Below are positions 7,993-35,126 of a DNA stretch of 64,000 nucleotides, piece after piece; within the stretch, counting starts at the first letter, position 1; the number at the start of each line of letters is the position of its first letter. The stretch is from assembly GCA_963717515.1 (NCBI GenBank), contig OY970338.1:1236861-1300860 (forward strand), written 5' to 3'. The translations under genes and the position numbers were made by a program. The notes below the pieces were generated by a model. That model worked only from the letters and a program-made list of their open reading frames with translations, was not told the origin of the DNA and did not search any database. Origin of the DNA: an uncultured Candidatus Woesearchaeota archaeon (lineage in GTDB: Archaea > Nanobdellota > Nanobdellia > Woesearchaeales > DSVV01).

Positions 7993-7993
7993 T

Positions 7994-8380: not shown

Positions 8381-8382
8381 CT

Positions 8383-9093: not shown

Positions 9094-9100
9094 CTGTCCA

Positions 9101-9361
9101 TCACATCATGCCAAGCTTTGTCGCAAGGTCTATTGCGGGATTGTCAGGTGAAAGCTTGACATATGCCTTCTTCTCCCCTGTATTTGTTATCATGGTGTTG
9201 ATCTTGAGTATCTTGACGTCAAATGCTTCCTCTAAGGCCTTCTTAATCTCGTCCTTCCTTGCCTTCCTCTCGACAAAGAACACAAGCTTGTTCTCGCTGT
9301 CCATTATCCTTATCGACTTCTCTGTCCCTGAAGGATATCTTATGATGCTCAGGCTTGCCAT
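9101..9361 (-). CDS. rpl23: 50S ribosomal protein L23 (uL23)
   Basis: The track ORF 9101..9397 overlaps the L4 tail. The internal ATG at 9361-9359 (MASLSIIRYPSGTEKSIR) lies directly after the L4 stop (9363-9365) and gives an 86-aa L23. Confidence 0.75.
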   Translation of the reverse strand: MASLSIIRYPSGTEKSIRIMDSENKLVFFVERKARKDEIKKALEEAFDVKILKINTMITNTGEKKAYVKLSPDNPAIDLATKLGMM

Positions 9362-9362
9362 C

Positions 9363-19012: not shown

Positions 19013-19033
19013 GGGCATGGCTGTGTCTATTTG

Positions 19034-21031: not shown

Positions 21032-23341
21032 CTATATCTTCTCCGCAACCCGCTCTTTTCCCACAAAGAACAGCAAGTACGCGAACATCTCGATCTCATC
21101 CATCTTATTGATCCAGAATCCATCTTCATCCTCAGACAGGACTCCGAGCGCCTTGAGCGCCATAACTGCATGACTGAAATCCCTGCCAGGATTTCTGCCG
21201 AACCGAGACAAATAATCCACTTTATATAATCTGAACCCATGGACGAGATTGTTGACTATGTATTTAACTTTTTCGAAGTCCTTTGAATAGCTTGTAGCAT
21301 AATTAACCATTGCAGCTTCATTTGTCGGGAATTTTTTCAGGAAAATATGCTTATTGGAACCTTTGTTCATTATCTTGTAATCCAGGGAATAGGGTATAAT
21401 TGGGTTGGCATAGTAACCCAGCCCGAATACAGCATGCTGGTCGGAGCTGTGATGAAAATATTTGTACCGGCAAGGAGGCCTATAATTCTTGTTGAAGAAC
21501 TGTGTCGGATGGATGAATCCTAGCGTTTCATGGGCTTGCGCCCTGAAGCCTGCTTCATCAGCAATCCTGAATATGTCCCTTGAGACTGATTCATGGAGCT
21601 TGAAATAGAATTCATTGAACTTTTCAAGCGATTTGTAATTCTTGGTTATGTATTCCATATCAGTCATGATGGGATAGATGAATATTGAGTCAGGCCCGAA
21701 AGCTGCCAATTTCCTGAATGAACGGATGAATGCATCTTTATTATCACCCTTTAAGCCCAGAACAAGATCTGCATTCTTGGTCTGGATGCCTGCAACTCCC
21801 ATATCGTGCAAGGCATTCTTGACTGAGTCTATGTCCTGCACTGACCTGTTGTTCAGCCTTAGGACTTCTTCTGAGAGCGACTGAACGCCGATTGAAACTT
21901 TGTTGAATCCGATCTCTTTTGCTGTGCTGAGCTTTTCCAACGATGAAGTGCCGGGGTTGAATTCAATCACTTTCTGTGAGCTCTTATGGAATGCGAACCT
22001 GGAGAACAATCTGCCGAACAACACCTTCATCTGCAGGACAGAGAGAAGCGAGGGTGTCCCTCCCCCTGCATAGAACGACCTGAATTCCACGCCTGAAAAT
22101 ACTTCCGAGTACTCGTCTATTTTCCTCATCAGGTACTTAACATATCTATCCATGCTCCTGCTGTCATAGCCTGTGGAGGGGTAAATACAATATGAGCACA
22201 TGCTTGTGCAGAAGGGTATGCTCAGATAGAAATCATACTGGATCTTGCCGTCATTGTTTTCCTGTATGAACTTTTTCCATGCATCCCTGACTTGCCCTTC
22301 GCTCAGCTCCCCTATGTCCTCTCTCAGGAACATATCATGGATTGTTTCGAAGCTGTTCCTGAAATCCACCTTTTCCTGGACATTTTTGTAAAATTCAAGC
22401 TCAGCCTGATACTGTTCCCTGTTTCTGTTCTCACCATATTTTGTTGATTTCGATACCGGCTTGAGCTCATCGAACCCGTACAGCTTCACGTATCCTTCAA
22501 ACAGCCCGCCGCAGACAGGGTCATATATGCAGTCCTTGCATGCTTCTCCCTTTATCTTGCCGTCCTCGACGTGCCTTACCCTGCTCCCGCTCTCGCGCTC
22601 AAGCTCCCATCGGCTGTCCTTGAGCAAAAGCTCACCGCAGCAGTCTTCATAACCTCTCAAAAAACACGGTGGGATAGAGCAGCCTGTGAATGAGAAGCCC
22701 ATGCCATTCTTCCTACAGTAGTCAAGTGCATTCCTGAGATAAGGGACTGCTTCTGATATCTTAGGGACTATCCATCTGTTCTTCCAGGCATTGCCCGCAG
22801 GCATGACAAATGAGAATGTGATATGCAGCTTTCCGAACTTGTTGTAGATGAACTTCACAAACTCAAGGATTTCCTTGTAGTTCTCCTTGTTTATCACAAA
22901 GCTTATGTCAGTCCGGATGCCCGTATCGACGAAACTGCTTATGGCTCTTGTGCTCTTATCAAACCCACCAGGCACCCTGGTCAGCCTGTCTGATACCTCT
23001 TTTTTATGGGAATGAAGAGATACAAGGACATTATCGATACCTGATTCTTTTACTTTTTCTGCAAAACCAGGGATGGATGCCACAAGCCCGTTTGTGCAGA
23101 GAGTTATCTTCGACGGTTTTCTTTGCCTGACCAACCTGGCAATCCGGAAAAGGTTTCTGCTGATGGTCGGTTCTCCGCCATCAATCACTACTTCTGTCCC
23201 TTTTTCAATAGAGCTGATGGTCTTTATCAGCATGCCAATAGAAGGGTCTGTCCTGTTGACATCCTCTCTGTCATAGGAACAGAACAGGCAGTTCTGGTTG
23301 CAGAGTTCAGTCAGGAACAATTGCTTTATTGATCTTTTCAA
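21032..23341 (-). CDS. Tandem double radical SAM protein: short 'CNQNCLFC' rSAM with C-terminal Cys module, fused to a HemN/HemZ-like rSAM
   Basis: Domain 1 has ELCNQNCLFCS, DGGEPT, IPPCFLRGYEDCC and CKDCIYDPVCGG. Domain 2 has IPFCTSMCSYCIYP and FYAGGGTPSLL, typical of oxygen-independent coproporphyrinogen-oxidase-like enzymes. Confidence 0.85.
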   Translation of the reverse strand: MKRSIKQLFLTELCNQNCLFCSYDREDVNRTDPSIGMLIKTISSIEKGTEVVIDGGEPTISRNLFRIARLVRQRKPSKITLCTNGLVASIPGFAEKVKESGIDNVLVSLHSHKKEVSDRLTRVPGGFDKSTRAISSFVDTGIRTDISFVINKENYKEILEFVKFIYNKFGKLHITFSFVMPAGNAWKNRWIVPKISEAVPYLRNALDYCRKNGMGFSFTGCSIPPCFLRGYEDCCGELLLKDSRWELERESGSRVRHVEDGKIKGEACKDCIYDPVCGGLFEGYVKLYGFDELKPVSKSTKYGENRNREQYQAELEFYKNVQEKVDFRNSFETIHDMFLREDIGELSEGQVRDAWKKFIQENNDGKIQYDFYLSIPFCTSMCSYCIYPSTGYDSRSMDRYVKYLMRKIDEYSEVFSGVEFRSFYAGGGTPSLLSVLQMKVLFGRLFSRFAFHKSSQKVIEFNPGTSSLEKLSTAKEIGFNKVSIGVQSLSEEVLRLNNRSVQDIDSVKNALHDMGVAGIQTKNADLVLGLKGDNKDAFIRSFRKLAAFGPDSIFIYPIMTDMEYITKNYKSLEKFNEFYFKLHESVSRDIFRIADEAGFRAQAHETLGFIHPTQFFNKNYRPPCRYKYFHHSSDQHAVFGLGYYANPIIPYSLDYKIMNKGSNKHIFLKKFPTNEAAMVNYATSYSKDFEKVKYIVNNLVHGFRLYKVDYLSRFGRNPGRDFSHAVMALKALGVLSEDEDGFWINKMDEIEMFAYLLFFVGKERVAEKI

Positions 23342-25150
23342 TTACATCACCGAGCTTGTCGAATACAGGATATATCTCTTTATGGCTGAACACTTCTGCA
23401 TAATTTTCCGGCACCCCGAAACATATCTTCTTGAGCGTGCAGACCGAACACGGCTCATAGAAATTGTTCTGGCGCACCCCGTCATGGCTCATGTTGTCGT
23501 CGAAATGGAGATATGAACTTTTTGTGTTCCTTACTATCTCCATGGATGGCGCGGAATATTCCTCGTATCCCCTGAGATAGCAGAGCGGCATCCTGTCGAC
23601 GACAGCCTTCAGCCTGTTGTTTTTAATGTATTCCAGTGCCCTGTAGACCCCTAGCTCTGAATCGCTCATCTTCACGAGTGGCTCCATGTTCTTTTTCGCC
23701 TGGTTCACAGGGTCTATGAAAATGAAGTTGAACATGCCCATGTCAGGATATCTCTTGTGCAGGAACCTTACATGCTCAAGAAGGTGCTTATGGTTGTATG
23801 AACATATGACTATGCCGAAACTGAGCTTCTCTCTTTTCCATGAATGTATGCTGTCCATCGCCTTCAATGCAAGGCCGTAATCCTTTGCAGAGCCTGTTAT
23901 GGTCTCATAGAGCTTCCTGTCTGATGCATGGAACGAGACGAGAAAGTCGATATCAAAGGCGTCAATGAGGCGCTTGAAAAAGCTCCTGCTCGACAGCAGG
24001 GTGCCGTTTGTCTGTAGGATAATCTTATGGATGCCTTTTTGTTTGCAGTAATTCAGAAATTTCGGCAGGTCTTTGTTGAGAGTAGGCTCTCCGCCTGTCA
24101 GGGTCAGATTCGTAGCACCTCTCATGATTGCGTAATCAAGCTTTTTTTTAGCTCGGAAAAAGGCATTGTCGTATTGTCGCAAGTAACAGAGCAAAATGCA
24201 CATTTCTGATTGCACCTGTTGTCTATCTGGAGGATGATATGGTCCTGCTTCTTGAGCCTGGGCACAAGCTCCTTGTCGCCGTGAATATTGATATAGTTCT
24301 GGTTCAGCCCGGGGCACCTGGGCTCAAGCTCGCATTCAGAGCACACGTCCGGCTTTGAATAATAGTTGGCCCTCCTGTTTATGCTCCCTTCCTCGAGCAG
24401 ACCTGTGAATGACGGCTCGTCGAATGCCTCTCTCCTGACCTCGCTGCAGTATTCCTCGAAGCCAGGCAGGAAACAGAGCGGGACAAACTCGATCCTGAAT
24501 CCCATGCCCCTGTCCAGGATGTACTGGAATGCCTCGAGCATATGGGGCTTTGCATCAGTGAGCCTTGGCACTATCCACTTGTTCTTCATGGCGTTATTCG
24601 TGGGGTCGACAAAATTATAGCTGAAATGCCTGATATGCGGAAAATTCTTTTCTGAAAATATCACCATGTCCTGAAGATCCCTGTAGTTCAGCGCATTGAT
24701 GACAGTCGTGAAATACGCATGGATCCTGTATTTCTCCACATTCTTCACACCTCTGCAGAACTGGTCAAAATCTCCGTCCCCCCGGGAAAGCTTTGGAAAT
24801 ATATCTTTTTTATTGGTATGATAGGAGATGTCGAACTTGTCAAGCCCTGACTTGATATATGCCTTAAGCAGTTTTTCATCATGGAGCCTGGAGGCATTTG
24901 TCTGCACAGAGACCTCTTCAAATCCCTGGGCCTTTGCATACCTGATGAGTTCTGGCAGGTCATCCCTGAGAGTGGGCTCTCCGCCTGTGAACATCACTTC
25001 TGTCACATCCTCTTTTTTGAGGTCGTCGATTGTCTTTTTTGCCTCTTCAAATGACAGCTCTGCATCCGAGTTCGGTGCTGAGCAGAACACGCAGTCCTGG
25101 TTGCACTTCCTGCTGACCTGCACAGTCCCAAGCACATGCCTTTTTTTCAT
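23307..25150 (-). CDS. Tandem double radical SAM protein interrupted by a -1 frameshift at an A8 run (track ORFs 24122..25150 and 23307..24317)
   Basis: Domain 1 has RKCNQDCVFCS, FTGGEPTL, VPLCFLPGFEEYC and CSECELEPRCPG. Domain 2 starts in the same frame (DNRCNQKCAFCS...MPFSELKK) and continues only in the -1 frame (KLDYAIMRGATNLTLTGGEPTL...MPLCYLRGYEEY...CSVCTLKKICFG). The Cys-motif to GGEPT spacing across the shift is 30 aa, against 32 aa in domain 1. Confidence 0.75.
24142..24149 (-). other. A8 homopolymer (T8 on the plus strand) at the frameshift point; A-AAA-AAA-type slippery run
   Basis: The minus strand reads gag cta aaa aaa agc ttg. Shifting -1 after the lysine codons gives aag ctt gat tac, which restores the second rSAM domain. 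Confidence 0.8.
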
Positions 25151-25659
25151 TTTATAACCTTGATCAGCTCCAGGAACTTATCCTGGGAAAATCGTTTCTC
25201 TCTGCTGTCCCGCCATCCTGTCACCAGCTTCTCAAGATTGAAGATCCCTTTCTCGAAAAGCTCAAACTCCCCGACAGCCCTCAGTGAGAATAATAGCTCT
25301 ACCCAAGGGGTTATGTCATCCTTTTCATACGAGAGGCTTTCGACAAAAAACCCCGCACTGAGTATGAAATCGTCGAAGATGTAATACATGTTCCCTATCA
25401 ATGAATAGAACAGGCCGATGGTCCTGTCAAGACCCGAATCTCCTGTCCTCTTCCTCTCGGTCAGGAGCATCCTGAGTATCTCCCGCGCCTCACCGATGGC
25501 CTTTTCAAGCTCATCGTTTTTCTGGAACCTGAGGCAGAGGTTGTAAGAGAATATCTCATCATGAGGCTCTCCAAGGCCATACGGGATGGGCCTTCTGTCT
25601 ATCGGAAACCCCAAAGTCCTTTCGAGTTCAGCAATCCTATCCGATATCATGTAGTCCAT
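25147..25659 (-). CDS. Hypothetical protein, predicted helical, embedded in the rSAM operon
   Basis: 170-aa ORF with 4-nt overlap to the downstream rSAM gene and a 1-nt gap to the upstream gene. No motif recognised. Confidence 0.5.
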   Translation of the reverse strand: MDYMISDRIAELERTLGFPIDRRPIPYGLGEPHDEIFSYNLCLRFQKNDELEKAIGEAREILRMLLTERKRTGDSGLDRTIGLFYSLIGNMYYIFDDFILSAGFFVESLSYEKDDITPWVELLFSLRAVGEFELFEKGIFNLEKLVTGWRDSREKRFSQDKFLELIKVIK

Positions 25660-25660
25660 C

Positions 25661-26626
25661 TTAATCGAAATCGAGCATGAACCAGCCTTCTTTTCTATCG
25701 ACCGTTTTTATGGTCCTGTTCCCCTTGCAGATCTTGAGCTTGCCGTCTTTTTCCAGTATCCTGTCGCCTTTCCTGACTAAGTCATAGAAACCGACAGTGT
25801 CTTCCGGCCTGGCAGGGTTGTCGATGTAGACGCTGTCCCTGTATCTTATCTCATCGCCTTTCATGTTCCCGTCGAACATCATGAAATTCCTCTCCCCGAA
25901 CACAAGAAGAGGCCTTTTTAGGAGCTCCCGGGTCTTTTTCACGAATCCCGGCTCGGCATCCATAATCCTGTTTTCGACATCAGCCGCATAGGCGATCGTA
26001 TTCTCGCACCTGTATGAACACGGTATGTGATGTATGTAGAAGAATGTCTTGTCCATCAGGAAATTGTTGCAGAGATATGAGCCTTTTGCCCCTTTTCCGT
26101 CATATTCTGTATTCTTGTACGTCTCATGCGGGTGGCTGTAGAGTCTCCAGTTGTTGTATCTCCTGAAGAAATCCACGCAGCAGTCCGGGAACCCGAGAAG
26201 CCTGCCGAACCTCAGATGGTCGACAAAGGGCTTGTTTATGCTCCGGTTGCCTATGACGACGGAATACCAGCCGAATTTTTTTGCCTTCAGCGCATCTTCC
26301 CTGGAATCTGATACGAACACATGGACCTCTCCTTCTTTCATCTTTTCATGGAACCGCTCCCCTACCTGGAAAGTGGTCGTGATATTCTCAGCACCGACAA
26401 TGCCTGCCTTGCCGGTCTTCGGTGTCCTGAATACAACATCTGTCTCGATAAAGAGCCCATAATCTTTGCAGATATTCCTGAACTCGTCAAAGACATTCAC
26501 GTCGATCCAGTCATCATAGCTTCTTTTCACTCCGAGCGCAGCAGCCACAAACATAGGGTACTGGTCTGAGTTCTTCAGCCTGACGTACTCTTTTGCGAAT
26601 TTTTTCGGTACATACTGCCCAATCAT
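25661..26626 (-). CDS. Conserved-looking hypothetical protein with GFPDCC and HHIPCSYRC motifs
   Basis: 321-aa ORF overlapping the upstream rSAM gene by 4 nt. The Cys pattern LLGFPDCCVDFF ... YIHHIPCSYRCENT recalls an archaeal DUF family, but I cannot name it with certainty. Confidence 0.55.
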   Translation of the reverse strand: MIGQYVPKKFAKEYVRLKNSDQYPMFVAAALGVKRSYDDWIDVNVFDEFRNICKDYGLFIETDVVFRTPKTGKAGIVGAENITTTFQVGERFHEKMKEGEVHVFVSDSREDALKAKKFGWYSVVIGNRSINKPFVDHLRFGRLLGFPDCCVDFFRRYNNWRLYSHPHETYKNTEYDGKGAKGSYLCNNFLMDKTFFYIHHIPCSYRCENTIAYAADVENRIMDAEPGFVKKTRELLKRPLLVFGERNFMMFDGNMKGDEIRYRDSVYIDNPARPEDTVGFYDLVRKGDRILEKDGKLKICKGNRTIKTVDRKEGWFMLDFD

Positions 26627-27516
26627 CTTTTCACAGCGACAAACTCGTCGCTTCCCCTCCTCTCCGGATACTCTTTCCAGGGCCCCTCGCAGACATTGTC
26701 ATATTTGCACTCTTTGCACTGGGGGAATTTCATCTTTCCCTCTGTCCTGCGGGTATTCTCAAAAGACGGGTCATAGGAGTTCACATCCCTTATCTCTGTC
26801 TCAGGCATGTAGAATTCAGAGCAGTATCTCTCATAGCCTTCCATCATGCAGAAAGGCATTGCCTCTGCCATCACCTTGACACCCGCATCTATGCCTATCT
26901 GCAGACCCTTTTTTATGTAGGGTGATGCAAGGCTCACCCATGGCATCATCTGGTCATAATTATCCATAGCATTGCCCACAGCATGCATGAAGGCGAACTG
27001 GTACTGGTCGACGCCGAGGTCCACGAGGAGCTTTGCGATTTCAGGGAGGTACCTGTAATTCGGCTTCACGACGACAGTGTTGGTTATTATGTACTGGTCC
27101 AGCTCCCTCAGGTTCCTTATCGCCCTGGTTGTCTGCAGGAATGAGCCTTGCCCGCGGGTCAGGTAATCATGAAGCTCTGGGATGTGGCCATGGAGCGCCG
27201 GGCCGAATTCATTGACGCCTGCCTTTATCAGTTCCCTGCAGTAGTCCCTGTACTGGAGCATGCGGACATTGCTCTGGAGCTGGATTCTATCGAATCCCAG
27301 GCATTTTGCATGCCTCACAAGGTCGAGGAGGTCGTCTCTTATGGTTACTTCCCCACCTGTGAATACCACTCCTGTGCAGCCGGTCTTTTTTGCATCTTCA
27401 AGATCTTTCTTTATGTCTCCTGTCTTCCTGTTGCCGAACCTCTTCTTGTGCGCCTGGACGCAGAACAGACAGTTGTTGTTGCATAGAAACCCAGTCTTAA
27501 TATCGACCCTTTTCAT
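26623..27516 (-). CDS. Radical SAM enzyme, short family with C-terminal Cys module (candidate HxsC-like partner)
   Basis: Contains GFLCNNNCLFCVQ, FTGGEVT, MPFCMMEGYERYC and CKECKYDNVCEGPW. It is the first gene of the minus-strand operon, divergent from the Hxs-like genes. Confidence 0.85.
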   Translation of the reverse strand: MKRVDIKTGFLCNNNCLFCVQAHKKRFGNRKTGDIKKDLEDAKKTGCTGVVFTGGEVTIRDDLLDLVRHAKCLGFDRIQLQSNVRMLQYRDYCRELIKAGVNEFGPALHGHIPELHDYLTRGQGSFLQTTRAIRNLRELDQYIITNTVVVKPNYRYLPEIAKLLVDLGVDQYQFAFMHAVGNAMDNYDQMMPWVSLASPYIKKGLQIGIDAGVKVMAEAMPFCMMEGYERYCSEFYMPETEIRDVNSYDPSFENTRRTEGKMKFPQCKECKYDNVCEGPWKEYPERRGSDEFVAVKR

Positions 27517-27667
27517 TGACTGGTGAATATCAGCATATCTTATAAAACTTTGGGATTAGATGTTTGTATTTCAAAAAGATTTAAATATTTCCCGTGATTT
27601 TACCATTTTCATGCCAGACGTGTCTATGCAGGGAAACCTGGAGATAAACAAGAAAGAGGGGTTTGTG
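27517..27667. promoter_or_regulatory. Divergent promoter region between the rSAM operon and the Hxs-like genes
   Basis: TTTAAATA at 27590-27597 faces the plus strand. TTTTATAAGATA on the minus strand (about 27537-27548) lies roughly 20-32 nt upstream of the minus-strand ATG at 27516. A GAGGGG SD-like motif precedes the ATG at 27668. Confidence 0.3.
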
Positions 27668-28129
27668 ATGGTCTCTGTGAATCCGAAGATATATCCGCTT
27701 GACGTCGTCCTCTCATCCTCATACATGTTCACTGACAAGAACTATGTCCTTGTTGACGGAGACCCGGAGGAGGAGCTGATTGTCGAGCTCAGGCCGAAAG
27801 ACAAAAATGCCGACATAGAGAAGCTCGGCAGGGACTTCAACAACGAGCTCATCAATTATGCTAATTATGCAGTACGGGCGATACAGAACCAGGGGATGCG
27901 GGAAGCCATAATCCACAGGGTGCTCATGACAAATTCAGCAGGCAGACCGGATTACAGGCAGCCTGTTGAAGAATATCCTGCTGCTGATGAAGAGCTCCTT
28001 GAAGTCGATGCAAAGCCTTGGATAAAATCAGACGAGAAATCAGAGGCCGACTCGCCATGGTTTGACGACCCTGAGGGGATCGCTGTTCCCTGGGAGGAGA
28101 AATATGGGGATAAAGGTAAGAAAAAATAA
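27668..28129 (+). CDS. HxsD-like small protein with acidic C-terminal tail (start uncertain; track ORF begins at 27560)
   Basis: MVSVNPKIYPLDVVLSSSYMFTDKNYVLVDG...GRDFNNELINYANYAVRA resembles the layout and the LLNDYxLRE-type motif I recall for HxsD. Alternative ATGs lie at 27560, 27611 and 27626. Confidence 0.45.
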   Translation: MVSVNPKIYPLDVVLSSSYMFTDKNYVLVDGDPEEELIVELRPKDKNADIEKLGRDFNNELINYANYAVRAIQNQGMREAIIHRVLMTNSAGRPDYRQPVEEYPAADEELLEVDAKPWIKSDEKSEADSPWFDDPEGIAVPWEEKYGDKGKKK

Positions 28130-28319
28130 TGTTCTTGTAAGGCTCAACGAGGAAATCTACTGCAGGGAATGCATTGAGCAGGCTATCAAGGATTTCAAGG
28201 ACGTATGCACAGTGACTGAGAATGAAGACGGCCTCCTGCTCAAGCCAAAGGCGAAGATCGAGCCTGTGAGGCTGGGTTATGAATTTTCCAATTATGTTCT
28301 AGGGCTCATGAAGAATTAG
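28104..28319 (+). CDS. Second HxsD-like small protein
   Basis: 71 aa from the ATG at 28104, preceded by GGAGGAG. It reads VLVRLNEEIYCRECIEQAIKDFKDVC...GYEFSNYVLGLMKN, with the same architecture as the upstream gene. Confidence 0.45.
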   Translation: MGIKVRKNNVLVRLNEEIYCRECIEQAIKDFKDVCTVTENEDGLLLKPKAKIEPVRLGYEFSNYVLGLMKN

Positions 28320-28324
28320 TGAAG

Positions 28325-29704
28325 ATGGCGATAAGTTATTTCGGGGACAAGGAGCAGTATGTACTGAACCATTACAGGTCGAGAGAGATCAAGGCAGGCC
28401 ATCTGGTGACCAATGACTACGGCTCTTGGGCGTTGCTTTCTCCTGATGAATACGCACAGCTCAGGACAGGGGACATCCAGGAGCCTCTTCTGACTCTTCT
28501 GAAGGATAAGGGGATTGTACTTGACAGGGGAAATTTTGCAAATGTCATCGATGATTACAGGAGGAAATGCGACTATCTCTTCATCGGCACTTCGCTCCAT
28601 ATTGTTGTCCCGACCCTGAGATGCAACTTGAAGTGCATTTACTGCCATGCAAGGGCCAAGAGCAGCAGGGCCAAGGGCTATGACATGGATGAAAAAACTG
28701 CGAAAAAAACCATTGATTTCATCTTCCAGAGCCCGACAGGATACATCACCATAGAATTCCAGGGGGGCGAGCCCCTGCTCAGGTTTGACCTCATCAAATA
28801 CATTATTGAATATGCAAAAGAGAAGAACAAGTCCCATAAGAAGGAGCTCCATTGGAGTGTGGTCACTAACCTTACCCATATGACTGATGAGATGTTTGAA
28901 TATTTCAAGAAGAACGGTGTCGGCATATGCACATCCCTTGACGGCCCTAAGGTTGTGCATGATGCAAACAGGCAGATGCATAGCAAGACCAGGAAATGGA
29001 TAAAGAAGATTGTTGATTCTTATACTATCAATGCAATGCTCCTTGCGACAAGGAACACACTGCCATACCCAAAGGAGATAGTTGATGAGTACATCAGCCT
29101 GGGCCTTCCGAGGATATGGATCAAGCCTGTGAACAACCTCGGCGATGCTGAGGGGAACTGGAAGAAGATCGGCATGACTGCAGCAGAATACCTTGATTTC
29201 TGGACAGAGGCGATGGATTATATCGTTACCAAGAACATCGAAGGGGTCCGGATTGAGGAAAATTATACCAAGATAATCCTGAGGAAGATACTGACAAAGG
29301 AATGCGTGAATTTCACAGACCTTGAAAGCCCATGCGGGGCTGCAATCGGCCAGCTCGCGTACAGCTACAACGGAAACATCCATACGTGCGATGAGGCAAG
29401 GCTGTTTGAGATGTTCAAGCTCGGGACAGTGGATGACAGATACAGCGATATAGTCACATCTCCAGGCGCATGTGCAATCACGAGGGCATCGATCAATGAC
29501 AATCCTGTGTGCGAGATGTGCGCCTACAAGCCTATATGCGGACTCTGCCCTGTGTGCAGTTATGCAGAGACAGGAAATATCATATCGAAGCTGCCGAACA
29601 GGCGCTGTGAGATACTTATCGGCATGTTCGACTACATATTTGAAAAGCTTGCTTCTGAAGAAAAATACAGGAAAGTTTTCTTCAGCTGGATAGGGAAAGA
29701 ATAA
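28325..29704 (+). CDS. Radical SAM/SPASM maturase (HxsB-like; anaerobic sulfatase maturase superfamily)
   Basis: About 90-aa N-terminal extension, then RCNLKCIYCHA and FQGGEPLL. The SPASM region is CGAAIGQLAYSYNGNIHTCDE ... CEMCAYKPICGLCPVCSY. The track ORF starts at GTG 28319, and the ATG is at 28325. Confidence 0.85.
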   Translation: MAISYFGDKEQYVLNHYRSREIKAGHLVTNDYGSWALLSPDEYAQLRTGDIQEPLLTLLKDKGIVLDRGNFANVIDDYRRKCDYLFIGTSLHIVVPTLRCNLKCIYCHARAKSSRAKGYDMDEKTAKKTIDFIFQSPTGYITIEFQGGEPLLRFDLIKYIIEYAKEKNKSHKKELHWSVVTNLTHMTDEMFEYFKKNGVGICTSLDGPKVVHDANRQMHSKTRKWIKKIVDSYTINAMLLATRNTLPYPKEIVDEYISLGLPRIWIKPVNNLGDAEGNWKKIGMTAAEYLDFWTEAMDYIVTKNIEGVRIEENYTKIILRKILTKECVNFTDLESPCGAAIGQLAYSYNGNIHTCDEARLFEMFKLGTVDDRYSDIVTSPGACAITRASINDNPVCEMCAYKPICGLCPVCSYAETGNIISKLPNRRCEILIGMFDYIFEKLASEEKYRKVFFSWIGKE

Positions 29705-29719
29705 TCCAATTCCAAAAAG

Positions 29720-29727
29720 TATAAATA
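29720..29727 (+). promoter_or_regulatory. TATA-box-like element upstream of the His-Xaa-Ser repeat gene
   Basis: TATAAATA lies 35-42 nt upstream of the ATG at 29762. This suggests the repeat gene has its own promoter and a very short 5' UTR. Confidence 0.3.
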
Positions 29728-29761
29728 TGGCTATGATTATAATATTGAAAAAAAGAGTAAA

Positions 29762-30661
29762 ATGCTGCCGATATTAAAAAAAAAGATAACAGGTTTCATA
29801 CTTAGTGAAGAGGGCAGGATGCCCAAGCAGTCTCTTCTTGCCATGGGCTCATTCCTTTCTGCAGCAGTCATCGGAGGTATTCTTGCGACAAGGGACAATG
29901 CTGCAAGCCATGTGAACAGCCTTGACATCAGGTATGGCACTTCCGAGGGATTAGGGGCTGAGGAGTCCAGGGGATATCATGACCATCATGCAAGCCACAG
30001 TTCACACGGTTCACATAGCAGTCATGGCTCGCATAGTTCACACGGTTCACACAGTTCCCATGGCAGCCATGGGAGTCATACAAGCCATAGCAGTCATGGT
30101 TCGCATAGTTCACACGGTTCACACAGTTCCCATGGCAGCCATGGGAGTCATACAAGCCATAGCAGTCATGGTTCGCATAGTTCACACGGTTCACACAGTT
30201 CCCATGGCAGCCATGGGAGTCATACAAGCCATAGCAGCCATGGTTCGCATAGCTCCCACTCAAGCCATGGTTCCCACAGCAGCCATAGTTCTCACAGCTC
30301 CCACTCAAGCCATGGTTCCCACAGCAGCCATAGTTCTCACAGCTCCCACTCAAGCCATGGTTCCCACAGCAGCCATAGTTCGCATAGCTCCCACTCAAGC
30401 CATGGTTCCCACAGCAGCCATGGTTCTCACAGTTCTCATGGAAGCCACAGCAGTCATGGTTCTCATAGTAGTCACGGGAGTCATACAAGCCATGGTTCTC
30501 ATAGTTCTCATGGCAGTCACTCAAGCCATGGAAGTCATAGCTCGCATGGGAGTCATGCGAGCGGTGGTGGTGGTGGTAGCGACGGCAGTTGTGGTACATC
30601 AGATGGCGATGCTGGCGGTGGCGGTGGCGATGGCGGTGCTAGTTGTGGTTGTGGATATTAG
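29762..30661 (+). CDS. His-Xaa-Ser repeat protein (HxsA-like): N-terminal hydrophobic segment, 64 HxS triplets, Gly/Asp/Cys tail
   Basis: - aa 1-75 contain SLLAMGSFLSAAVIGGILA.
- aa 76-267 are 64 consecutive H-[SGTA]-S triplets (29987-30562).
- The tail is GGGGGSDGSCGTSDGDAGGGGGDGGASCGCGY. Confidence 0.8.
   Translation: MLPILKKKITGFILSEEGRMPKQSLLAMGSFLSAAVIGGILATRDNAASHVNSLDIRYGTSEGLGAEESRGYHDHHASHSSHGSHSSHGSHSSHGSHSSHGSHGSHTSHSSHGSHSSHGSHSSHGSHGSHTSHSSHGSHSSHGSHSSHGSHGSHTSHSSHGSHSSHSSHGSHSSHSSHSSHSSHGSHSSHSSHSSHSSHGSHSSHSSHSSHSSHGSHSSHGSHSSHGSHSSHGSHSSHGSHTSHGSHSSHGSHSSHGSHSSHGSHASGGGGGSDGSCGTSDGDAGGGGGDGGASCGCGY
30041..30256 (+). repeat. 72-bp tandem repeat x3 inside the HxS gene
   Basis: The units 30041-30112 and 30113-30184 are identical. 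The third unit (30185-30256) differs only near its end. Each unit encodes 24 aa. Confidence 0.9.
30251..30430 (+). repeat. 45-bp tandem repeat x4 inside the HxS gene
   Basis: agctcccactcaagccatggttcccacagcagccatagttctcac occurs at 30251-30295 and again, identical, at 30296-30340. The units at 30341-30385 and 30386-30430 carry 1-3 substitutions. Each unit encodes 15 aa. Confidence 0.9.
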
Positions 30662-30761
30662 ATAATGAATTATAATTTTTTCAAAATTATTAGATTTACC
30701 ACTTTGTAGGGGTATTAATTTCGAAACATTTATAAATTATTAAATATTATTAGTAAAAATA

Positions 30762-31838
30762 ATGATGATGGAAATACATTCAAAAAAATTATATACGCAA
30801 TTAATATTAAACATTATGTCCTTTTTCTATATTGGTTGTACTACAACTGGACCAACCAAACCAAATGTTAATATCTTTTCTAATCCGAATGAAACAGGAA
30901 AATCAGTTGCAAGAATGCAAGAAACTTTTTCAGTTGCTAATGAAGTCTTATTTGAGTTAACACAACAAAATCCGTTAATCACAAGCGAGTTAGGTAAATT
31001 ACCTGAACTTCAGGATGGAATTTCTAAATCTGAATTAATATCACTTGAGAAAATTGTAAATATATATAAAAATAACAAAAAAAAATTTGAAGAAGCATTT
31101 AGCCAGATGTATCAAGTGGGAAAACCTAATTTCAGGAAATATTGTTCACCATTACAGGCGTTTTTTTGGCTTATTGAAGACGGTAAAGTAAATATCGCTC
31201 AAGATACAATAAAAAATTATTCTCTTGATAATTTGCTGGAGAATTCATGGGATTTCCGGTTAAAGACAATTACTTTTTCAGATGACCAAATCTCATCAAT
31301 CATTGAAAATACCAGTGATAACAAATGGCAAAAATTATACAAAGAGAATGTTTCCGACAAGAATTTTTTACAAAGATTGATATTGATGAAATATGAAAAA
31401 AATCCGGGAATATATAATGGTAAAGCTAAAAATATAATTAAAGATGAATTATCAAATCAGCAAGATGATAAATGGTCTAATTTTGATAAAGTTTCAATAA
31501 GATTAAATTCACCTGAATTGATTGATTTTTGGACTCAAAAAAATTTAACCTATTCTTTTTATTTAGGTACTATGAAATCAAACCAATCAATTTTTAAATC
31601 AAAAAATGGAAATTGTGAAGATACATCAAGTTTCATAGTTAATTTATTGAGAAAAGCTGGATATGAAGCAAACACTTTGGATGTAGTGTCAAAGGACCCT
31701 AATGTACCATTCCACGTGATTGTTAAATACCAGATAAATGATAGTTTTTATCTTATGGATAACGGGACTTTTATTCCGGCAGGAATTATGGGCCCTTTCA
31801 AATCAATGAAAGAAAGCAGCTATAAACTTCATTATTAG
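30762..31838 (+). CDS. Lipoprotein-like protein with C-terminal transglutaminase-like Cys-protease core
   Basis: N-terminal hydrophobic segment ending in FFYIGC. The C-terminal NGNCEDTSSFIVNLLRKAGYEAN ... FHVIVKY ... LMDNG fits the Cys-His-Asp transglutaminase-like pattern. Confidence 0.55.
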   Translation: MMMEIHSKKLYTQLILNIMSFFYIGCTTTGPTKPNVNIFSNPNETGKSVARMQETFSVANEVLFELTQQNPLITSELGKLPELQDGISKSELISLEKIVNIYKNNKKKFEEAFSQMYQVGKPNFRKYCSPLQAFFWLIEDGKVNIAQDTIKNYSLDNLLENSWDFRLKTITFSDDQISSIIENTSDNKWQKLYKENVSDKNFLQRLILMKYEKNPGIYNGKAKNIIKDELSNQQDDKWSNFDKVSIRLNSPELIDFWTQKNLTYSFYLGTMKSNQSIFKSKNGNCEDTSSFIVNLLRKAGYEANTLDVVSKDPNVPFHVIVKYQINDSFYLMDNGTFIPAGIMGPFKSMKESSYKLHY

Positions 31839-33077: not shown

Positions 33078-33127
33078 AATATAAAATACAATAATGTTTA
33101 TATAATTTGCTTAATTCTGATATCATA

Positions 33128-34249
33128 ATGATCCAAAACTTGCCAAAACCAAAGAGTTTCACAATGCAGTGGCATATCACTAACAGGTGTAATTGGGCCT
33201 GCAGCCATTGCTATCAGGATGGAAATGCTATTGAAGAGCTGGAAATGGATAAGATTTATGACATCATGGACCAGTTTATCGGGCTTTTGAAGAGATGGGA
33301 TATACCAGAGAATCGGGCCAGGATAAACCTGACTGGCGGAGAGCCGTTGCTTCACAAAGGATTCTTTGATATAGCAGACCGACTTAAAAATAATTCGAAT
33401 TTTCTGAGATGGGGGGTGCTTTCGAATGGTTCCTTGTTGACTAAAAATATTGTCAAAAAATTGAAGGATGCAGATATATTCAGATATCAGATCAGTCTCG
33501 AAGGACTTGAAGAAACCAACGACCAGATCAGGGGCAAAGGGACATATAAAAGAGTGATAAAATCTATCAGATTACTGAAAGATGGCGGGGTCAATACTGT
33601 CGTCTCCCTTACACTTACAAAAAACAATGTTCATGAGATTCCTGAACTAGTCAAAGTCCTTGATAAACTGGGAGTCACGTATCTCGGAACAAGGAGACTT
33701 ATACCCATTGGAAGAGGTTCAAGCCTCGGACTGCTGGAGCCAAATGAATTAAAGAAATATTACCAGGAAACCATAAAAATTAATAAGGAATTGAGAGACA
33801 GACAAAGCAGGCTTAGGGTTGGGATTGGCTGTGAAAGCGGGATTTTCAATGAGAATACCAGACTGAATAATTATTGTGCAATTCTGGATGGTAGAATAAT
33901 CATAGTAATGCCGAATGGGGATGTGCTTCCCTGCAGGAGACTGCCTGTAGTCCTTGGCAATTTGAAAAATAAAAGCCTTTTTGAGATATATTATTCGTCT
34001 GAAGAGTTATGGAAAATGAGAAACCTGAACAACGCTCATGTATTCTGCAAATCATGCACTAATTTCAATCAATGTTTTGGAGGAGCAAAATGCGTGAATT
34101 ACTGTTATGCTAATAAATTGTCAGTTCCGGATGTGCAGTGCTGGAAGTATTTTGACAGGATAAAAAGTCTGGAACAATTCAACAAATATGTCGATAATAA
34201 TGAGAAAGAGGTTAAGCTTCATAAAATATTGGAAAATGCAAAACCATAA
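33128..34249 (+). CDS. Radical SAM/SPASM enzyme
   Basis: Contains HITNRCNWACSHCYQ and LTGGEPLL. The SPASM region is CAILDGRIIIVMPNGDVLPCRRL ... CKSCTNFNQCFGGAKCVNYC. The track start 33107 is TTG, and the ATG is at 33128. Confidence 0.85.
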   Translation: MIQNLPKPKSFTMQWHITNRCNWACSHCYQDGNAIEELEMDKIYDIMDQFIGLLKRWDIPENRARINLTGGEPLLHKGFFDIADRLKNNSNFLRWGVLSNGSLLTKNIVKKLKDADIFRYQISLEGLEETNDQIRGKGTYKRVIKSIRLLKDGGVNTVVSLTLTKNNVHEIPELVKVLDKLGVTYLGTRRLIPIGRGSSLGLLEPNELKKYYQETIKINKELRDRQSRLRVGIGCESGIFNENTRLNNYCAILDGRIIIVMPNGDVLPCRRLPVVLGNLKNKSLFEIYYSSEELWKMRNLNNAHVFCKSCTNFNQCFGGAKCVNYCYANKLSVPDVQCWKYFDRIKSLEQFNKYVDNNEKEVKLHKILENAKP

Positions 34250-35126
34250 ATTTCCAGGCAGGATAATCAATGCAAGCAAAAGACCCCGGGGTCAGGGGAT
34301 TGATTTATGCTTCCGATGCAATAACAGATGCATTTTCTGTTATGACAATCATAAGAGAAATGATATCTCTGACAAACCCTTGGAGCAAGCAAAAAAAGAT
34401 GTATTGGCCTTAAAGAAGAAAGGAATAAATATCATTTCTCTAAGAGGCAGTGAACCTACTATCTATCCTCATATCTATCAGCTTGTCAGCTTTATCAATA
34501 ATCATGGCCTGAAATTCAGGATGACGACGAATGCCCGGATATTTTCATATGTCGAGACAGCTAAAAAATTTGCATCATTAGGTCTTGATAATGTCTATGT
34601 TTCCCTGCATTCTCATAAGGCAGATATACATGACAAACTGACTCAGACAAAAGGCAGTTTCGATCAGACCTTAAAAGGAATTAAAAATTTGCTCGCTTCT
34701 GGTGTCAGAGTTGAGACCAATACAACGATTTTAAAGCAGAATGTGGAAGATCTACCAAAGATTACACAACTGTTGTCACGATATGGCTTGTTTAGGGCGA
34801 GGTTTTCTTTCCTTTTCTGTGAGGGTGTTGGCTTGGATATAGGGTGGTGGAAAAAACTAATGCCTTCCATTGCCGAGACCCGGGAAAGCCTGTCTGAAGC
34901 AATGAACATCTTTCAGGTGAGAGGCATATACTCTTTTATTGAGAAACTGCCAATATGCGGTGCACCACAATATTATCGTGATTTCAAGCCTGAGGATTAT
35001 GTAATTGCCGCAAACATCAAGCCGGAAATATGCCAAAAATGTGCTTATCACAAAGATAACTATTGTGTCGGAGTCAGTCCCATGTATCTGAAAATGTATG
35101 GGGAAAAAGACCTGATACCTCAATGA
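34236..35126 (+). CDS. Radical SAM enzyme, short family with C-terminal Cys module
   Basis: Contains CFRCNNRCIFCYD, LRGSEPT, TTNARIF, LPICGAPQYY and CQKCAYHKDNYCVG. The internal ATG at 34236 overlaps the upstream gene by 14 nt; the track start is 34188. Confidence 0.8.
   Translation: MQNHKFPGRIINASKRPRGQGIDLCFRCNNRCIFCYDNHKRNDISDKPLEQAKKDVLALKKKGINIISLRGSEPTIYPHIYQLVSFINNHGLKFRMTTNARIFSYVETAKKFASLGLDNVYVSLHSHKADIHDKLTQTKGSFDQTLKGIKNLLASGVRVETNTTILKQNVEDLPKITQLLSRYGLFRARFSFLFCEGVGLDIGWWKKLMPSIAETRESLSEAMNIFQVRGIYSFIEKLPICGAPQYYRDFKPEDYVIAANIKPEICQKCAYHKDNYCVGVSPMYLKMYGEKDLIPQ

What the first reader, a model, noticed from the sequence alone, without database searches (positions are those of the whole stretch)
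29762..30661. Architecture of the repeat protein: hydrophobic N-terminus, 64 perfect-period HxS triplets, Gly/Asp/Cys tail
- aa 76-267 keep a strict period of three. His is at position 1, Ser is at position 3, and only S, G, T or A occupy position 2. No interruption occurs over 192 aa.
- The N-terminal 75 aa contain one hydrophobic segment (SLLAMGSFLSAAVIGGILA), which could be a signal/anchor or a leader.
- The last 32 aa switch to GGGGGSDGSCGTSDGDAGGGGGDGGASCGCGY, with three Cys.
- This looks like a substrate or scaffold rather than an enzyme.
- Alternative readings are a His-rich metal (Ni/Co/Zn/Fe) buffer serving the many Fe-S and cobalamin enzymes nearby, or a surface polymer.
Basis: seen in the sequence. 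Interest (0 to 1): 0.8.

Follow-up and report, generated by a model that had tools for sequence, protein, structure and literature searches.

The report
Archaeal HxsA protein, 64 HxS repeats
This gene encodes the substrate/effector protein (HxsA type) of a known radical-SAM 'His-Xaa-Ser' maturation system, here in a Woesearchaeota-like archaeon; it stands out because its array of 64 His-x-Ser units is about twice as long as any relative found, and the bacterial version of the system was recently shown to block phage DNA entry.

Summary
ORF 29762-30661(+) encodes 299 aa with 64 uninterrupted HxS triplets (aa 76-267), one hydrophobic N-terminal segment and a Gly/Asp/Cys tail. It is not an orphan. 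It is the last gene of a His-Xaa-Ser (HXS) cassette: HxsC-like rSAM (26623-27516, -), HxsD (27560-28129), HxsD-like (28104-28319), HxsB (28319-29704, passes the curated TIGR03978 cutoff), then this HxsA. Its N-terminal 80 aa define a family related to NCBIfam HxsA3. I found 181 unique members, almost all from DPANN archaea or metagenomes. They share a Lys-rich helix, a hydrophobic helix, an A-x-A site, an HxHHxSH motif and a variable HxS array (median longest run 2, maximum elsewhere 33), and usually end in Tyr/Trp or a Cys-rich tail. Codon usage shows protein-level selection, and 72-bp and 45-bp higher-order repeats show recent DNA expansion. Most likely this is a ribosomal pre-protein that HxsB/C/D modify and the cell then exports as a His/Ser-rich surface polymer. 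An antiviral role is inferred only by analogy with E. coli HXS. The metal-buffer reading is not favoured. The count of 64 rests on one assembly, because an independent short-read contig breaks inside the array. Verdict: a new variant of a known kind, of moderate interest.

The parts
26623..27516 (-). HxsC-type radical SAM enzyme (297 aa), divergently transcribed from hxsD. It has CX3CX2C at aa 12-19 and a C-terminal CX2CX5C at aa 267-276.
   Evidence: The best NCBIfam hit is HxsC4 NF038332 (167 bits, E 6e-49; cutoff 500 not reached). HxsC TIGR03977 scores 87 bits. Orthologues at 38-51% identity lie next to HxsB/HxsA in L002, L005, L016/17, L019, L020, L024 and L027. Motifs were checked.
27560..28129 (+). 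HxsD (189 aa)
   Evidence: TIGR03976 scores 45.1 bits, E 1e-11, just under the cutoff of 50. The identical product in the Logan contig carries PF27806:HxsD. Orthologues lie upstream of HxsB in at least 15 related loci.
28104..28319 (+). Small HxsD-like protein (71 aa; the ORF is open from 28062)
   Evidence: NF038315 HxsD_rel scores 56.4 bits against a cutoff of 41, so it passes. The same small gene sits between HxsD and HxsB in L002, L003, L016 and L020.
28319..29704 (+). HxsB, a radical SAM/SPASM maturase (461 aa from GTG; 459 aa from the ATG at 28325)
   Evidence: TIGR03978 scores 433.7 bits against a cutoff of 370, so it passes. It is 35% identical over its full length to the annotated HxsB of Aeromonas plasmid NC_009349.1. 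The closest solved structure is CteB 5wgg. CX3CX2C lies at aa 102-109, with a Cys-rich SPASM C-terminus.
29720..29727 (+). TATAAATA, a possible archaeal TATA box 35 bp upstream of the hxsA ATG, in the 57-bp hxsB-hxsA spacer
   Evidence: Read directly from the sequence. This is inference only, because no archaeal promoter tool was available.
29762..30661 (+). hxsA: His-Xaa-Ser repeat pre-protein (299 aa plus stop)
   Evidence: NF038313 HxsA4 scores 96 bits (cutoff 55), matching through the repeat only. The NF038309 HxsA3 N-domain model scores 40.4 bits (E 1.9e-10, cutoff 65).
29762..29905 (+). Conserved N-terminal leader/signal domain, aa 1-48: a Lys-rich helix (aa 4-15), a hydrophobic helix (aa 22-45), then N-A-A (aa 46-48), a candidate signal-peptidase site
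   Evidence: Alignment A2: P3, G18, H73 and H76 are invariant; K7, F12, E16, K22, G29, A48 and H50 are at least 90% conserved. The KD19 peak is 1.94, and the n-region carries +5/-2 charges. AF2 predicts helices at aa 4-15 and 22-45 with pLDDT about 80.
29906..29986 (+). Spacer aa 49-75 (SHVNSLDIRYG...YHDH), containing the conserved HxNS and HxHH motifs that precede the array
   Evidence: Alignment A2.
29987..30562 (+). 64 x His-x-Ser array (aa 76-267, 576 bp), built from 72-bp and 45-bp higher-order repeats
   Evidence: The longest array in 181 family members is 33 units.
30563..30658 (+). Gly/Asp/Cys tail aa 268-299, ending ...SCGCGY. It contains C277-x3-D281.
   Evidence: Similar Gly/Cys tails occur in the closest relatives P0003, P0008, P0014 and P0019. 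The tail aligns with the linker '...GGCGC|PF' that precedes a large C-terminal domain in L001, P0155 and P0166.
25661..26626 (-). DUF483-like protein (321 aa), a possible accessory gene co-transcribed with hxsC
   Evidence: The Pfam DUF483 hit is weak (E 3e-5). A DUF483-like gene also precedes HxsD in L020, with a tblastn match of E 1e-7. Membership is uncertain.

Best explanation
The ORF is the HxsA-type precursor/effector of an archaeal His-Xaa-Ser (HXS) radical-SAM maturation cassette. It is an HxsA3-like variant with an exceptionally expanded array.

**Proposed mechanism**
1. The 299-aa pre-protein is made ribosomally. Shown: it is a coding, conserved family.
2. Its first 48 residues act as a leader. 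The Lys-rich helix is probably the docking element for HxsB and/or HxsD and HxsD-like. The hydrophobic helix plus A-x-A is a Sec-type signal or N-in/C-out anchor. This step is inferred.
3. In the cytoplasm, HxsB (SPASM rSAM) and the HxsC-type rSAM install covalent modification(s) on His/Ser units near the conserved HxHHxSH start and/or the C-terminal Cys/Tyr tail. This is inferred from genetics in E. coli, where HxsB/C/D are needed for N-terminal cleavage and a +8 Da change on one HxS unit. The chemistry is unknown.
4. The roughly 251-aa, 24.6-kDa mature chain (27% His, 41% Ser, 19% Gly) is displayed outside the cell. It would be an unstructured or fibrous, multivalent polymer that is pH-gated (about 0 charge at pH 7, +26 at pH 6) and can bind polyanions or metals.
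5. By analogy with the bacterial system, it would hinder incoming viral nucleic acid or particles at the envelope. Array length sets reach and valency, and it changes quickly by unequal recombination.

**My probabilities**
- HXS-type rSAM substrate: about 0.85.
- Exported: about 0.65.
- Antiviral role: about 0.3.
For: **Cassette membership**
- HxsB passes its curated cutoff, and HxsD-like passes its cutoff.
- HxsD is 5 bits under its cutoff but carries PF27806:HxsD.
- The HxsC-type rSAM is conserved beside HxsB/HxsA in at least 10 related loci.

**Family homology**
- All 21 aligned family members match the HxsA3 N-domain model.
- An exhaustive profile search found 286 cluster representatives.

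**Conserved architecture**
- Members share the leader helix, the hydrophobic helix, A-x-A and HxHHxSH.
- 93 of 181 members end in Tyr or Trp.

**Coding evidence**
- Synonymous codon diversity in the repeat shows protein-level selection.
- Relatives carry HxS arrays of 1-33 units in the same frame.

**C-terminal fusions in relatives**
- Relatives fuse the array to self-cleaving Peptidase_S74 or Hint domains.
- These fused genes still sit beside HxsD-like and rSAM genes, so the array is the functional product.

**Experimental precedent**
- PMC13128918 shows HxsB/C/D-dependent processing, export and antiphage activity of E. coli HxsA.
Against: **Sequence differences from the canonical system**
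- There is no similarity to canonical HxsA outside the repeat (BLAST finds no hit), and TIGR03979 does not match.
- There is no peptidoglycan-binding domain.
- Position x is never basic here, whereas it is Arg-rich in Aeromonas and E. coli. The published electrostatic DNA-binding model therefore transfers only through His protonation.

**Cassette differences**
- All HxsC-like genes score far below the TIGR03977/NF038332 cutoffs, and the best candidate is on the opposite strand.
- In E. coli only the last repeat was modified, so 64 units may not all be substrates.

**Context**
- PADLOC recognises no defence genes nearby.
- The cassette sits in a roughly 22-kb island with at least 11 rSAM domains, which could point to a more elaborate and different pathway.

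**Missing data**
- There is no expression or proteomic evidence.
- Export is inferred from hydropathy only.
- The count of 64 rests on one assembly.
Confidence: 0.68

Rival explanations
1. It is a His-rich metal-binding protein: a Ni/Zn/Fe/Co buffer, store or scavenger. The 67 His residues of the mature chain would chelate divalent ions, either for the cell's many Fe-S/B12 enzymes or as an extracellular metallophore-like polymer.
For: - The mature chain is 27% His, spaced i/i+3, and begins with a conserved HxHH motif.
- The tail carries three Cys and four Asp.
- The gene sits among many Fe-S/B12 radical-SAM genes.
- From my own knowledge: HxH motifs bind iron in trimeric phage fibres, for example T4 gp37.
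Against: - The neighbouring Fe-S proteins are peptide-maturase-type rSAM paralogues, not obvious metal clients.
- The conserved signal-like N-terminus argues against a cytoplasmic buffer.
- Most family members have only 1-5 HxS units, too few for storage.
- The tight linkage with HxsB/HxsD is unexplained by simple metal binding.
- This reading does not exclude the main explanation, because metal binding could be a property of the matured product.
Confidence: 0.15
2. It is a structural surface fibre. The period-3 array, with a small residue at x, would fold with two other chains into a trimeric, collagen-like or beta-helical rod roughly 55-60 nm long, possibly stabilised by His-metal layers or rSAM cross-links. 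The rod would serve in cell-cell (host) attachment.
For: - Relatives fuse the same N-domain and HxS array directly to Peptidase_S74, the self-cleaving trimerisation chaperone of tail fibres and endosialidases. NCBI names one of them 'tail fiber domain-containing protein'.
- The period-3 pattern produces weak matches to collagen-like adhesin models (E 2e-8).
- DPANN archaea are largely episymbionts (my own knowledge).
- Array length varies widely between close relatives.
Against: - Gly occupies only 26 of the 64 x positions, so this is not a canonical collagen.
- The AF2 monomer gives pLDDT about 42 over the array, although a monomer model cannot test trimers.
- The window protein itself has no S74 domain.
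- Most family members have arrays too short to form a fibre.
Confidence: 0.12
3. It is a multi-core RiPP precursor. The 64 HxS units would be modified, for example by His-C2 to Ser-C-beta three-residue cyclophanes as in triceptides, and then cut into many copies of a small diffusible natural product.
For: - HxS fits the aromatic-x-x triceptide motif.
- The rSAM/SPASM enzymes HaaB, HtkB and YhhB make His-C2 to residue-3 C-beta cross-links on HAA, HTK and HNR motifs (PMC11499958).
- The island contains B12-rSAM and methyltransferase genes typical of RiPP clusters.
- A Nanohaloarchaeal relative has a Trp-x repeat core instead.
Against: - HxsB scores only 63-68 bits against the cyclophane-synthase models, whose cutoffs are 310-445.
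- There are no protease sites or spacers between units.
- No dedicated protease or transporter is conserved in related loci.
- In E. coli the product is a protein, not a small peptide (PMC13128918).
Confidence: 0.05
4. It is not a real protein feature: a DNA-level tandem repeat or assembly artefact that happens to be open in this frame.
For: - Two other frames are also open across the repeat.
- The short-read contig breaks inside the array.
- The source assembly shows a homopolymer indel 5.6 kb upstream.
Against: - The N-domain and tail are in frame with the array and are conserved in 181 homologues.
- His and Ser are kept through six Ser codons and two His codons.
- Homologues with unrelated DNA keep HxS in frame.
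- The first 8 units are confirmed independently.
Confidence: 0.03

Closest known systems
Bacterial HXS antiphage system (HxsD-HxsB-HxsC-HxsA; TIGR03976-03979; Li et al., Nat Commun 2026, PMC13128918)
   Same: - It pairs an rSAM/SPASM HxsB (35% identity, passing the curated model) with a second rSAM, an HxsD-type small protein, and a final gene encoding a signal-bearing protein with tandem His-x-Ser units.
- The precursor is presumably processed at the N-terminus and exported.
   Different: - **Host:** the published survey found 99.7% of systems in Pseudomonadota, whereas this one is in a DPANN-type archaeon.
- **Repeat:** 64 units here against 5-7. Position x is G/S/T/A here, and often Arg there.
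- **Domains:** there is no peptidoglycan-binding domain, the N-domain is unrelated, and a Gly/Asp/Cys tail is present.
- **Cassette:** an extra HxsD-like gene is present. HxsC is about 100 aa shorter, below cutoff and divergently oriented. Four or more further HxsC paralogues lie nearby.
NCBIfam HxsA3 (NF038309, N-terminal domain model), HxsA4 (NF038313), HxsC4 (NF038332) and HxsD_rel (NF038315)
   Same: - The N-terminal 80 aa align end to end with the HxsA3 profile (positions 2-79 of 81).
- All 21 aligned relatives hit HxsA3.
- HxsD_rel passes its cutoff.
- The HxsC candidate's best hit is HxsC4.
   Different: - The window protein scores 40 bits against the HxsA3 cutoff of 65.
- It passes HxsA4 only through the low-complexity repeat (profile positions 51-92).
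- HxsC4 scores 167 bits against a cutoff of 500.
- No publication describing these variant types was found.
Triceptides (three-residue cyclophane RiPPs; HaaB, HtkB, YhhB)
   Same: They have an aromatic-x-x motif that can be repeated in the precursor, an rSAM/SPASM maturase, and established His-C2 cross-linking chemistry.
   Different: The maturase is not in those families (63-68 bits). The products are small peptides, and there is no evidence here for a -2 Da cross-link. The E. coli HxsA modification is +8 Da.
Ranthipeptide/sactipeptide synthases PapB and CteB
   Same: They are HxsB's nearest characterised relatives (PapB model 147 bits; CteB 5wgg E 5.5e-21). The tail contains a Cys-x3-Asp motif like the PapB substrates.
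   Different: The scores fall well below family cutoffs. The thioether idea is only a lead from the motif, and most family members lack Cys.
Phage/archaeal tail-fibre-like proteins with a C-terminal Peptidase_S74 intramolecular chaperone
   Same: Relatives of this protein (P0164-P0167, P0170 and others) carry S74 immediately after the HxS array.
   Different: The window protein has no S74 domain. No relatives were found in IMG/VR viral contigs.

Membership tests
HXS system (HxsABCD) | HxsB radical SAM/SPASM maturase matching TIGR03978 above the curated cutoff | tested here: met
   433.7 bits against a cutoff of 370. It is 35% identical over 477 columns to annotated Aeromonas HxsB.
HXS system (HxsABCD) | Adjacent gene encoding tandem His-Xaa-Ser repeats | tested here: met
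   64 uninterrupted units, 57 bp downstream of hxsB.
HXS system (HxsABCD) | HxsA matches the canonical model TIGR03979 | tested here: not met
   The window protein has no TIGR03979 hit at E<=0.01. Only 4 of 21 relatives hit it weakly. BLAST against Aeromonas HxsA finds nothing.
HXS system (HxsABCD) | Second rSAM, HxsC (TIGR03977), above cutoff | tested here: not met
   The best scores are 155 bits (36226-37116) and 87 bits (26623-27516) against a cutoff of 267.9. However, 26623-27516 has conserved orthologues beside HxsB in related loci, plus both Cys motifs.
HXS system (HxsABCD) | HxsD (TIGR03976; LYW and LLNDYxLRE motifs) | tested here: inconclusive
   45.1 bits against a cutoff of 50. PF27806:HxsD is recorded for the identical product. 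The motifs are degenerate ('ELINYANYAVR').
HXS system (HxsABCD) | Gene order HxsD-HxsB-HxsC-HxsA (99.6% of bacterial systems) | tested here: not met
   The order here is HxsC(-) | HxsD, HxsD-like, HxsB, HxsA.
HXS system (HxsABCD) | HxsA has a signal peptide and is exported | tested here: inconclusive
   A single hydrophobic helix (aa 22-45), a positively charged n-region and a conserved A-x-A are present. No dedicated signal-peptide predictor was available, and the n-region is unusually long at 23 aa.
HXS system (HxsABCD) | Peptidoglycan-binding domain in HxsA | tested here: not met
   There are no Pfam hits. The sequence after the array is a 32-aa Gly/Asp/Cys tail.
HXS system (HxsABCD) | rSAM-dependent cleavage and +8 Da modification; block of phage DNA entry | not testable with these tools
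   This needs co-expression with MS and infection assays.
NCBIfam HxsA3 (NF038309) | N-terminal domain score at or above 65 bits | tested here: not met
   40.4 bits, E 1.9e-10, aligned over profile positions 2-79 of 81. Homology is clear, but curated membership is not reached.
NCBIfam HxsA4 (NF038313) | Whole-protein score at or above 55 bits | tested here: inconclusive
   96 bits, but no single stretch passes. The best stretch covers only the repeat part of the profile (positions 51-92), so the score is driven by composition and repeats.
Triceptide cyclophane RiPPs | Maturase belongs to a cyclophane-synthase family (YhhB, GrrM, AmcB models) | tested here: not met
   68.5, 63.6 and 55.1 bits against cutoffs of 445, 310 and 425.
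Collagen-like proteins | Gly at every third residue | tested here: not met
   Gly occupies 26 of the 64 x positions. The Scl/Lcl model hits are far below cutoff.
Cytoplasmic His-rich metallochaperones (HypB/Hpn/UreE-like tails) | Cytoplasmic location and linkage to metalloenzyme maturation genes | tested here: not met
   A signal-like N-terminus is predicted. The neighbours are peptide-maturase rSAMs, with no hyp or ure genes.

The most novel reading that the evidence does not exclude
The HxS array is not merely an rSAM substrate. It would be a new kind of fibrous biopolymer: three chains assemble into a long rod (about 55-60 nm for 64 units), held together by layers of His (metal-bridged) and/or rSAM-installed cross-links. 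This would be a 'histidine collagen' displayed on DPANN archaeal cells for host attachment or virus exclusion, with repeat number tuning its length. The reading is suggested by relatives in which the array is fused directly to the Peptidase_S74 trimerisation chaperone or to self-cleaving Hint domains.
Probability: 0.1. Interest if true: 0.85.

Novelty: new variant of a known kind. Interest (0 to 1): 0.5.

Why it matters
**What was known.** The HXS system was a bioinformatic curiosity from about 2011 until 2026. It was then shown in E. coli to be the first defence that blocks phage DNA entry, acting through an rSAM-matured effector with five HxS units. That work reported the system as essentially proteobacterial.

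**What this locus adds.**
- A related cassette is widespread in DPANN archaea. It has its own precursor family, with a different leader, no peptidoglycan-binding domain, and C-termini that are aromatic, Cys-rich or fused to self-cleaving domains.
- The HxS array can expand from 1 to 64 units.

**Why that is useful.**
- A long, perfectly periodic array should give repeated identical MS fragments, which makes it a natural amplified substrate for working out the unknown HxsB/HxsC chemistry.
- The family gives a way to ask what the repeats do physically: polycation, metal ligand or fibre.
- It may point to an envelope-level antiviral or attachment mechanism in uncultivated episymbiotic archaea.

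Tried and rejected
1. Exact-product look-ups of HxsA and of HxsB from the GTG start found nothing. HxsB from the ATG at 28325 was found.
2. PADLOC has no HXS model. It returned only generic viperin-like rSAM similarity.
3. IMG/VR scans with HxsB and with the N-domain alignment found no viral relatives.
4. The AF2 monomer model of HxsA has confident helices only at aa 4-15 and 22-45. The array has no confident fold.
5. AF2 of the 'CPF...VWNG' C-terminal domain fused in relatives (P0166) was low-confidence. Foldseek against the PDB gave no match at E<=0.001, only generic beta-sandwiches.
6. That domain, S74 and Hint are all absent from the window.
7. The downstream transglutaminase-like lipoprotein, the glycosyltransferase, the methyltransferase and the B12-rSAM genes are not conserved in related loci, so I do not count them as core.
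8. A class-III (prepilin) signal was considered, because prepilin peptidase genes lie near the cassette in L003 and L020. The usual Gly/Ala at position -1 is missing, so I did not adopt this idea.
9. The original Haft & Basu 2011 paper is not held in the library.
10. A literature search for His-rich or rSAM surface proteins in DPANN archaea found nothing relevant.
Full report
**1. Observation.**
- The ORF at 29762-30661(+) is real as described. A script found one uninterrupted (HxS)64 run at aa 76-267, made of HSS x32, HGS x26, HTS x4 and HAS x2.
- A 19-residue hydrophobic segment at aa 24-42 is the only hydropathy peak (KD19 = 1.94).
- The 32-aa tail is GGGGGSDGSCGTSDGDAGGGGGDGGASCGCGY.
- The ORF is 52% G+C in a 42% G+C window.
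- At the DNA level the array is built from higher-order units of 72 bp (3.4 copies, 97% identity) and 45 bp (4.5 copies, 94%), so it expanded recently.
- Selection nevertheless acts on the protein. There are 29 distinct 9-mers that encode only four tripeptides, and the invariant Ser is split 32:32 between AGY and TCN codons.
- Two other frames are also open across the repeat. The argument for coding therefore rests on homologues, not on ORF length.

**2. What it is.** NCBIfam places the neighbours in the His-Xaa-Ser (HXS) system. I read the cassette as HxsC(-) | HxsD, HxsD-like, HxsB, HxsA.
- **HxsB:** the upstream gene 28319-29704 scores 433.7 bits on TIGR03978 (cutoff 370).
- **HxsD:** 27560-28129 scores 45 bits on TIGR03976 (cutoff 50), and the identical product carries PF27806:HxsD.
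- **HxsD-like:** a small overlooked ORF at 28104-28319 passes the HxsD-like model NF038315 (56.4 bits against 41).
- **HxsC candidate:** the divergent rSAM 26623-27516 has HxsC4 as its best hit (167 bits, below cutoff). It carries CX3CX2C and a C-terminal CX2CX5C motif. It has orthologues at 38-51% identity beside HxsB/HxsA in at least ten related loci.
- **HxsA:** the repeat protein exceeds the HxsA4 cutoff only through its repeat. Its N-terminal 80 residues align end to end with the HxsA3 N-domain model, at 40 bits (cutoff 65).

**3. Organism.**
- The window carries archaeal-type ribosomal proteins L3 and L4.
- It also carries a 98-nt tRNA that matches the full 71-position model, so the tRNA contains an intron.
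- The L3 protein is 100% identical to a protein on a 1.84-Mb NCBI/ENA contig. The nearest named relatives, at about 60% identity, are Candidatus Woesearchaeota or Nanoarchaeota.
- HxsB's relatives among GTDB species genomes are all archaeal: Woesearchaeota 59%, Nanoarchaeota, Methanosarcinales, Iainarchaeota, Aenigmatarchaeota and Nanohaloarchaeota.

**4. The family.**
- An exhaustive profile search with the N-domain found 286 cluster representatives. After adding locus-derived ORFs I have 181 unique members.
- The shared architecture is, in order:
  - a Lys-rich helix (...LPKIKKKITGFLLSEEGK...);
  - a hydrophobic helix;
  - an A-x-A site (A48 is at least 90% conserved);
  - an HxNS motif;
  - an invariant HxHHxSH motif;
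  - a variable HxS array.
- The median longest array is 2 units. Only six members have 20 or more units, and the maximum elsewhere is 33 (L025). The window has 64.
- Close relatives differ widely. L031 (HxsB 72% identical) has 21 units and L013 (69%) has about 4.
- 93 of 181 members end in Tyr or Trp, typically ...HxS[YW]-COOH, and 58 have Cys-rich tails.
- The closest relatives (P0003, P0008, P0014, P0019) have Gly/Cys tails like the window's.
- Other members fuse the array directly to one of three modules:
  - Peptidase_S74, the tail-fibre intramolecular trimerisation chaperone;
  - Hint/intein-like domains;
  - a 330-aa domain that begins CPF-x-VWNG.
- These fused genes also sit beside HxsD-like and rSAM genes. 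None of the three modules is present in the window.

**5. Comparison with the characterised system.**
- Li et al. (PMC13128918) showed that E. coli HxsA has a signal peptide, five HxS units and a peptidoglycan-binding domain. It needs HxsB, HxsC and HxsD for N-terminal cleavage and for a +8 Da modification on one SHRSS unit. It acts in the periplasm to block phage DNA entry.
- They report 99.7% of systems in Pseudomonadota and do not mention archaea.
- I retrieved an annotated canonical cassette from Aeromonas plasmid NC_009349.1 (hxsD-B-C-A) and compared it with the window:
  - HxsB is 35% identical.
  - Canonical HxsC is about 100 aa longer.
  - HxsA shares nothing with the window protein beyond the repeat.
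  - Canonical x positions are mostly Arg, whereas the window's are never basic.

**6. Mechanism.**
- **Shown:** the gene codes for a conserved family, the family is genomically linked with HxsB, HxsC-type, HxsD and HxsD-like genes, and the array length is hypervariable.
- **Inferred:**
  - The leader serves both maturase recognition and export.
  - The rSAMs modify His/Ser units and perhaps the Cys/Tyr tail. The tail contains a Cys-x3-Asp motif, and PapB and CteB are HxsB's nearest characterised relatives.
  - The mature 24.6-kDa chain is extracellular. It is about neutral at pH 7 and +26 at pH 6.
- **Function:** an envelope-level antiviral barrier is proposed by analogy only.
- **Rivals:** metal binding, a trimeric fibre and a multi-core RiPP are scored separately. 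The first two are compatible with the rSAM-substrate identity.

**7. Caveats.**
- An independent short-read assembly (Logan ERR11571143) matches window 18326-30058 at 99.99% but terminates after the 8th HxS unit. The figure of 64 is therefore not independently verified.
- The only difference between the two assemblies is a T8/T9 homopolymer at about 24142-24150. This suggests that the window derives from long reads, which would span the array but may carry indel errors.
- No expression data exist.

**8. Verdict.**
- The system is already catalogued, and its bacterial form is now experimentally characterised.
- What is new is the archaeal HxsA3-like variant, its modular family, and the record-length array set in a roughly 22-kb island with at least 11 radical-SAM domains.
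- I rate it a new variant of a known kind, interest 0.5.

Noticed in passing
window 19034-40743: This is an exceptionally dense radical-SAM island around hxsA, with at least 11 rSAM domains. They include five or more HxsC-like paralogues that share the C-terminal CX2CX5C motif (21032-23341 N-terminal half, 23307-25150, 26623-27516, 34188-35126, 36226-37116). There are also fusions of B12-rSAM with an HxsC-like half (19034-21031) and of HxsC-like with HemN-like (21032-23341), a SPASM rSAM (33107-34249), two B12-rSAMs (37782-40743) and a SAM methyltransferase. More rSAM genes lie at 47407-48693 and 50327-51760. Most are not conserved in related loci.
   Followed up: partly
window ~24142-24150 (within 23307-25150, - strand): A T8 homopolymer in the window reads T9 in the independent Logan contig. 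With T9, the two overlapping ORFs (23307-24317 and 24122-25150) become one 614-aa protein with two radical-SAM domains. This is probably a long-read homopolymer error in the window's source assembly, or a slippage variant.
   Followed up: yes
L007 6566-6895 (+) (Nanohaloarchaeota; likewise near HxsC/HxsB in L008-L010): A precursor-like 109-aa ORF lies directly upstream of HxsC and HxsB. It has a similar Lys-rich N-terminus and hydrophobic segment, but its core is 'QWKNHCWNWSWCWCWTWSWSWSWSHDASST', made of Trp-x repeats rather than His-x-Ser.
   Followed up: no
P0164-P0167, P0170, P0175-P0180 (loci L016-L018); P0163, P0168 (L019); P0155, P0158, P0166, P0174, L001 3959-5368: The HxsA3-like N-domain plus HxS array is fused in relatives to Peptidase_S74 (tail-fibre trimerisation chaperone), to Hint/intein-like domains, or to an uncharacterised roughly 330-aa beta-rich domain starting CPF-x-VWNG. 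At least two of these three modules are self-cleaving.
   Followed up: partly
L027 9079-9393 (+): This family member has a shifted repeat, 'HSV' x8 (...HISHSVHSVHSVHSVHSVHSVHAVHSVHHNGY). Ser follows His directly instead of preceding it.
   Followed up: no
P0156, P0161, P0162, P0172, P0178, P0183; P0169, P0171, P0173; P0182: Other unrelated protein families from metagenomes carry long HxS or HxN arrays without the HxsA3 N-domain. One group shares a 'CTTVCPSVCTS' motif before the array, another has the array at the extreme N-terminus, and one has HWS/HGS units.
   Followed up: no
window 43848-44849 (-): Three short consecutive ORFs look like remnants of a frame-broken radical-SAM gene. One of them contains CNINCIFC.
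   Followed up: no
window 11718-11815 (+): A 98-nt tRNA matches the full 71-position Rfam model. ARAGORN could not assign its anticodon, so it is presumably an intron-containing archaeal tRNA. It lies next to the L3-L4-L23-L2-S19-L22 ribosomal protein operon at about 391-11359 (-).
   Followed up: partly
window 30762-31838 (+): The gene immediately downstream of hxsA encodes a 358-aa protein with an N-terminal hydrophobic segment ending ...FYIGC (lipobox-like) and a weak transglutaminase-like core hit (E 1.7e-4). It could be an extracellular Cys-protease or transglutaminase acting on HxsA, but it is not conserved in related loci.
   Followed up: partly
L003 6153-7244; L020 1-2618: Prepilin peptidase genes (EppA-like or Peptidase_A24), and in L020 also pilin (N_methyl) and T2SSF genes, lie just upstream of the HxsD-HxsB-HxsA cassette in two related loci.
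   Followed up: no
window 29979-30665 (+) and 29928-30599 (-): Two long ORFs (228 aa and 223 aa) overlap hxsA. They are by-products of the stop-free repeat in other frames, not genes.
   Followed up: yes
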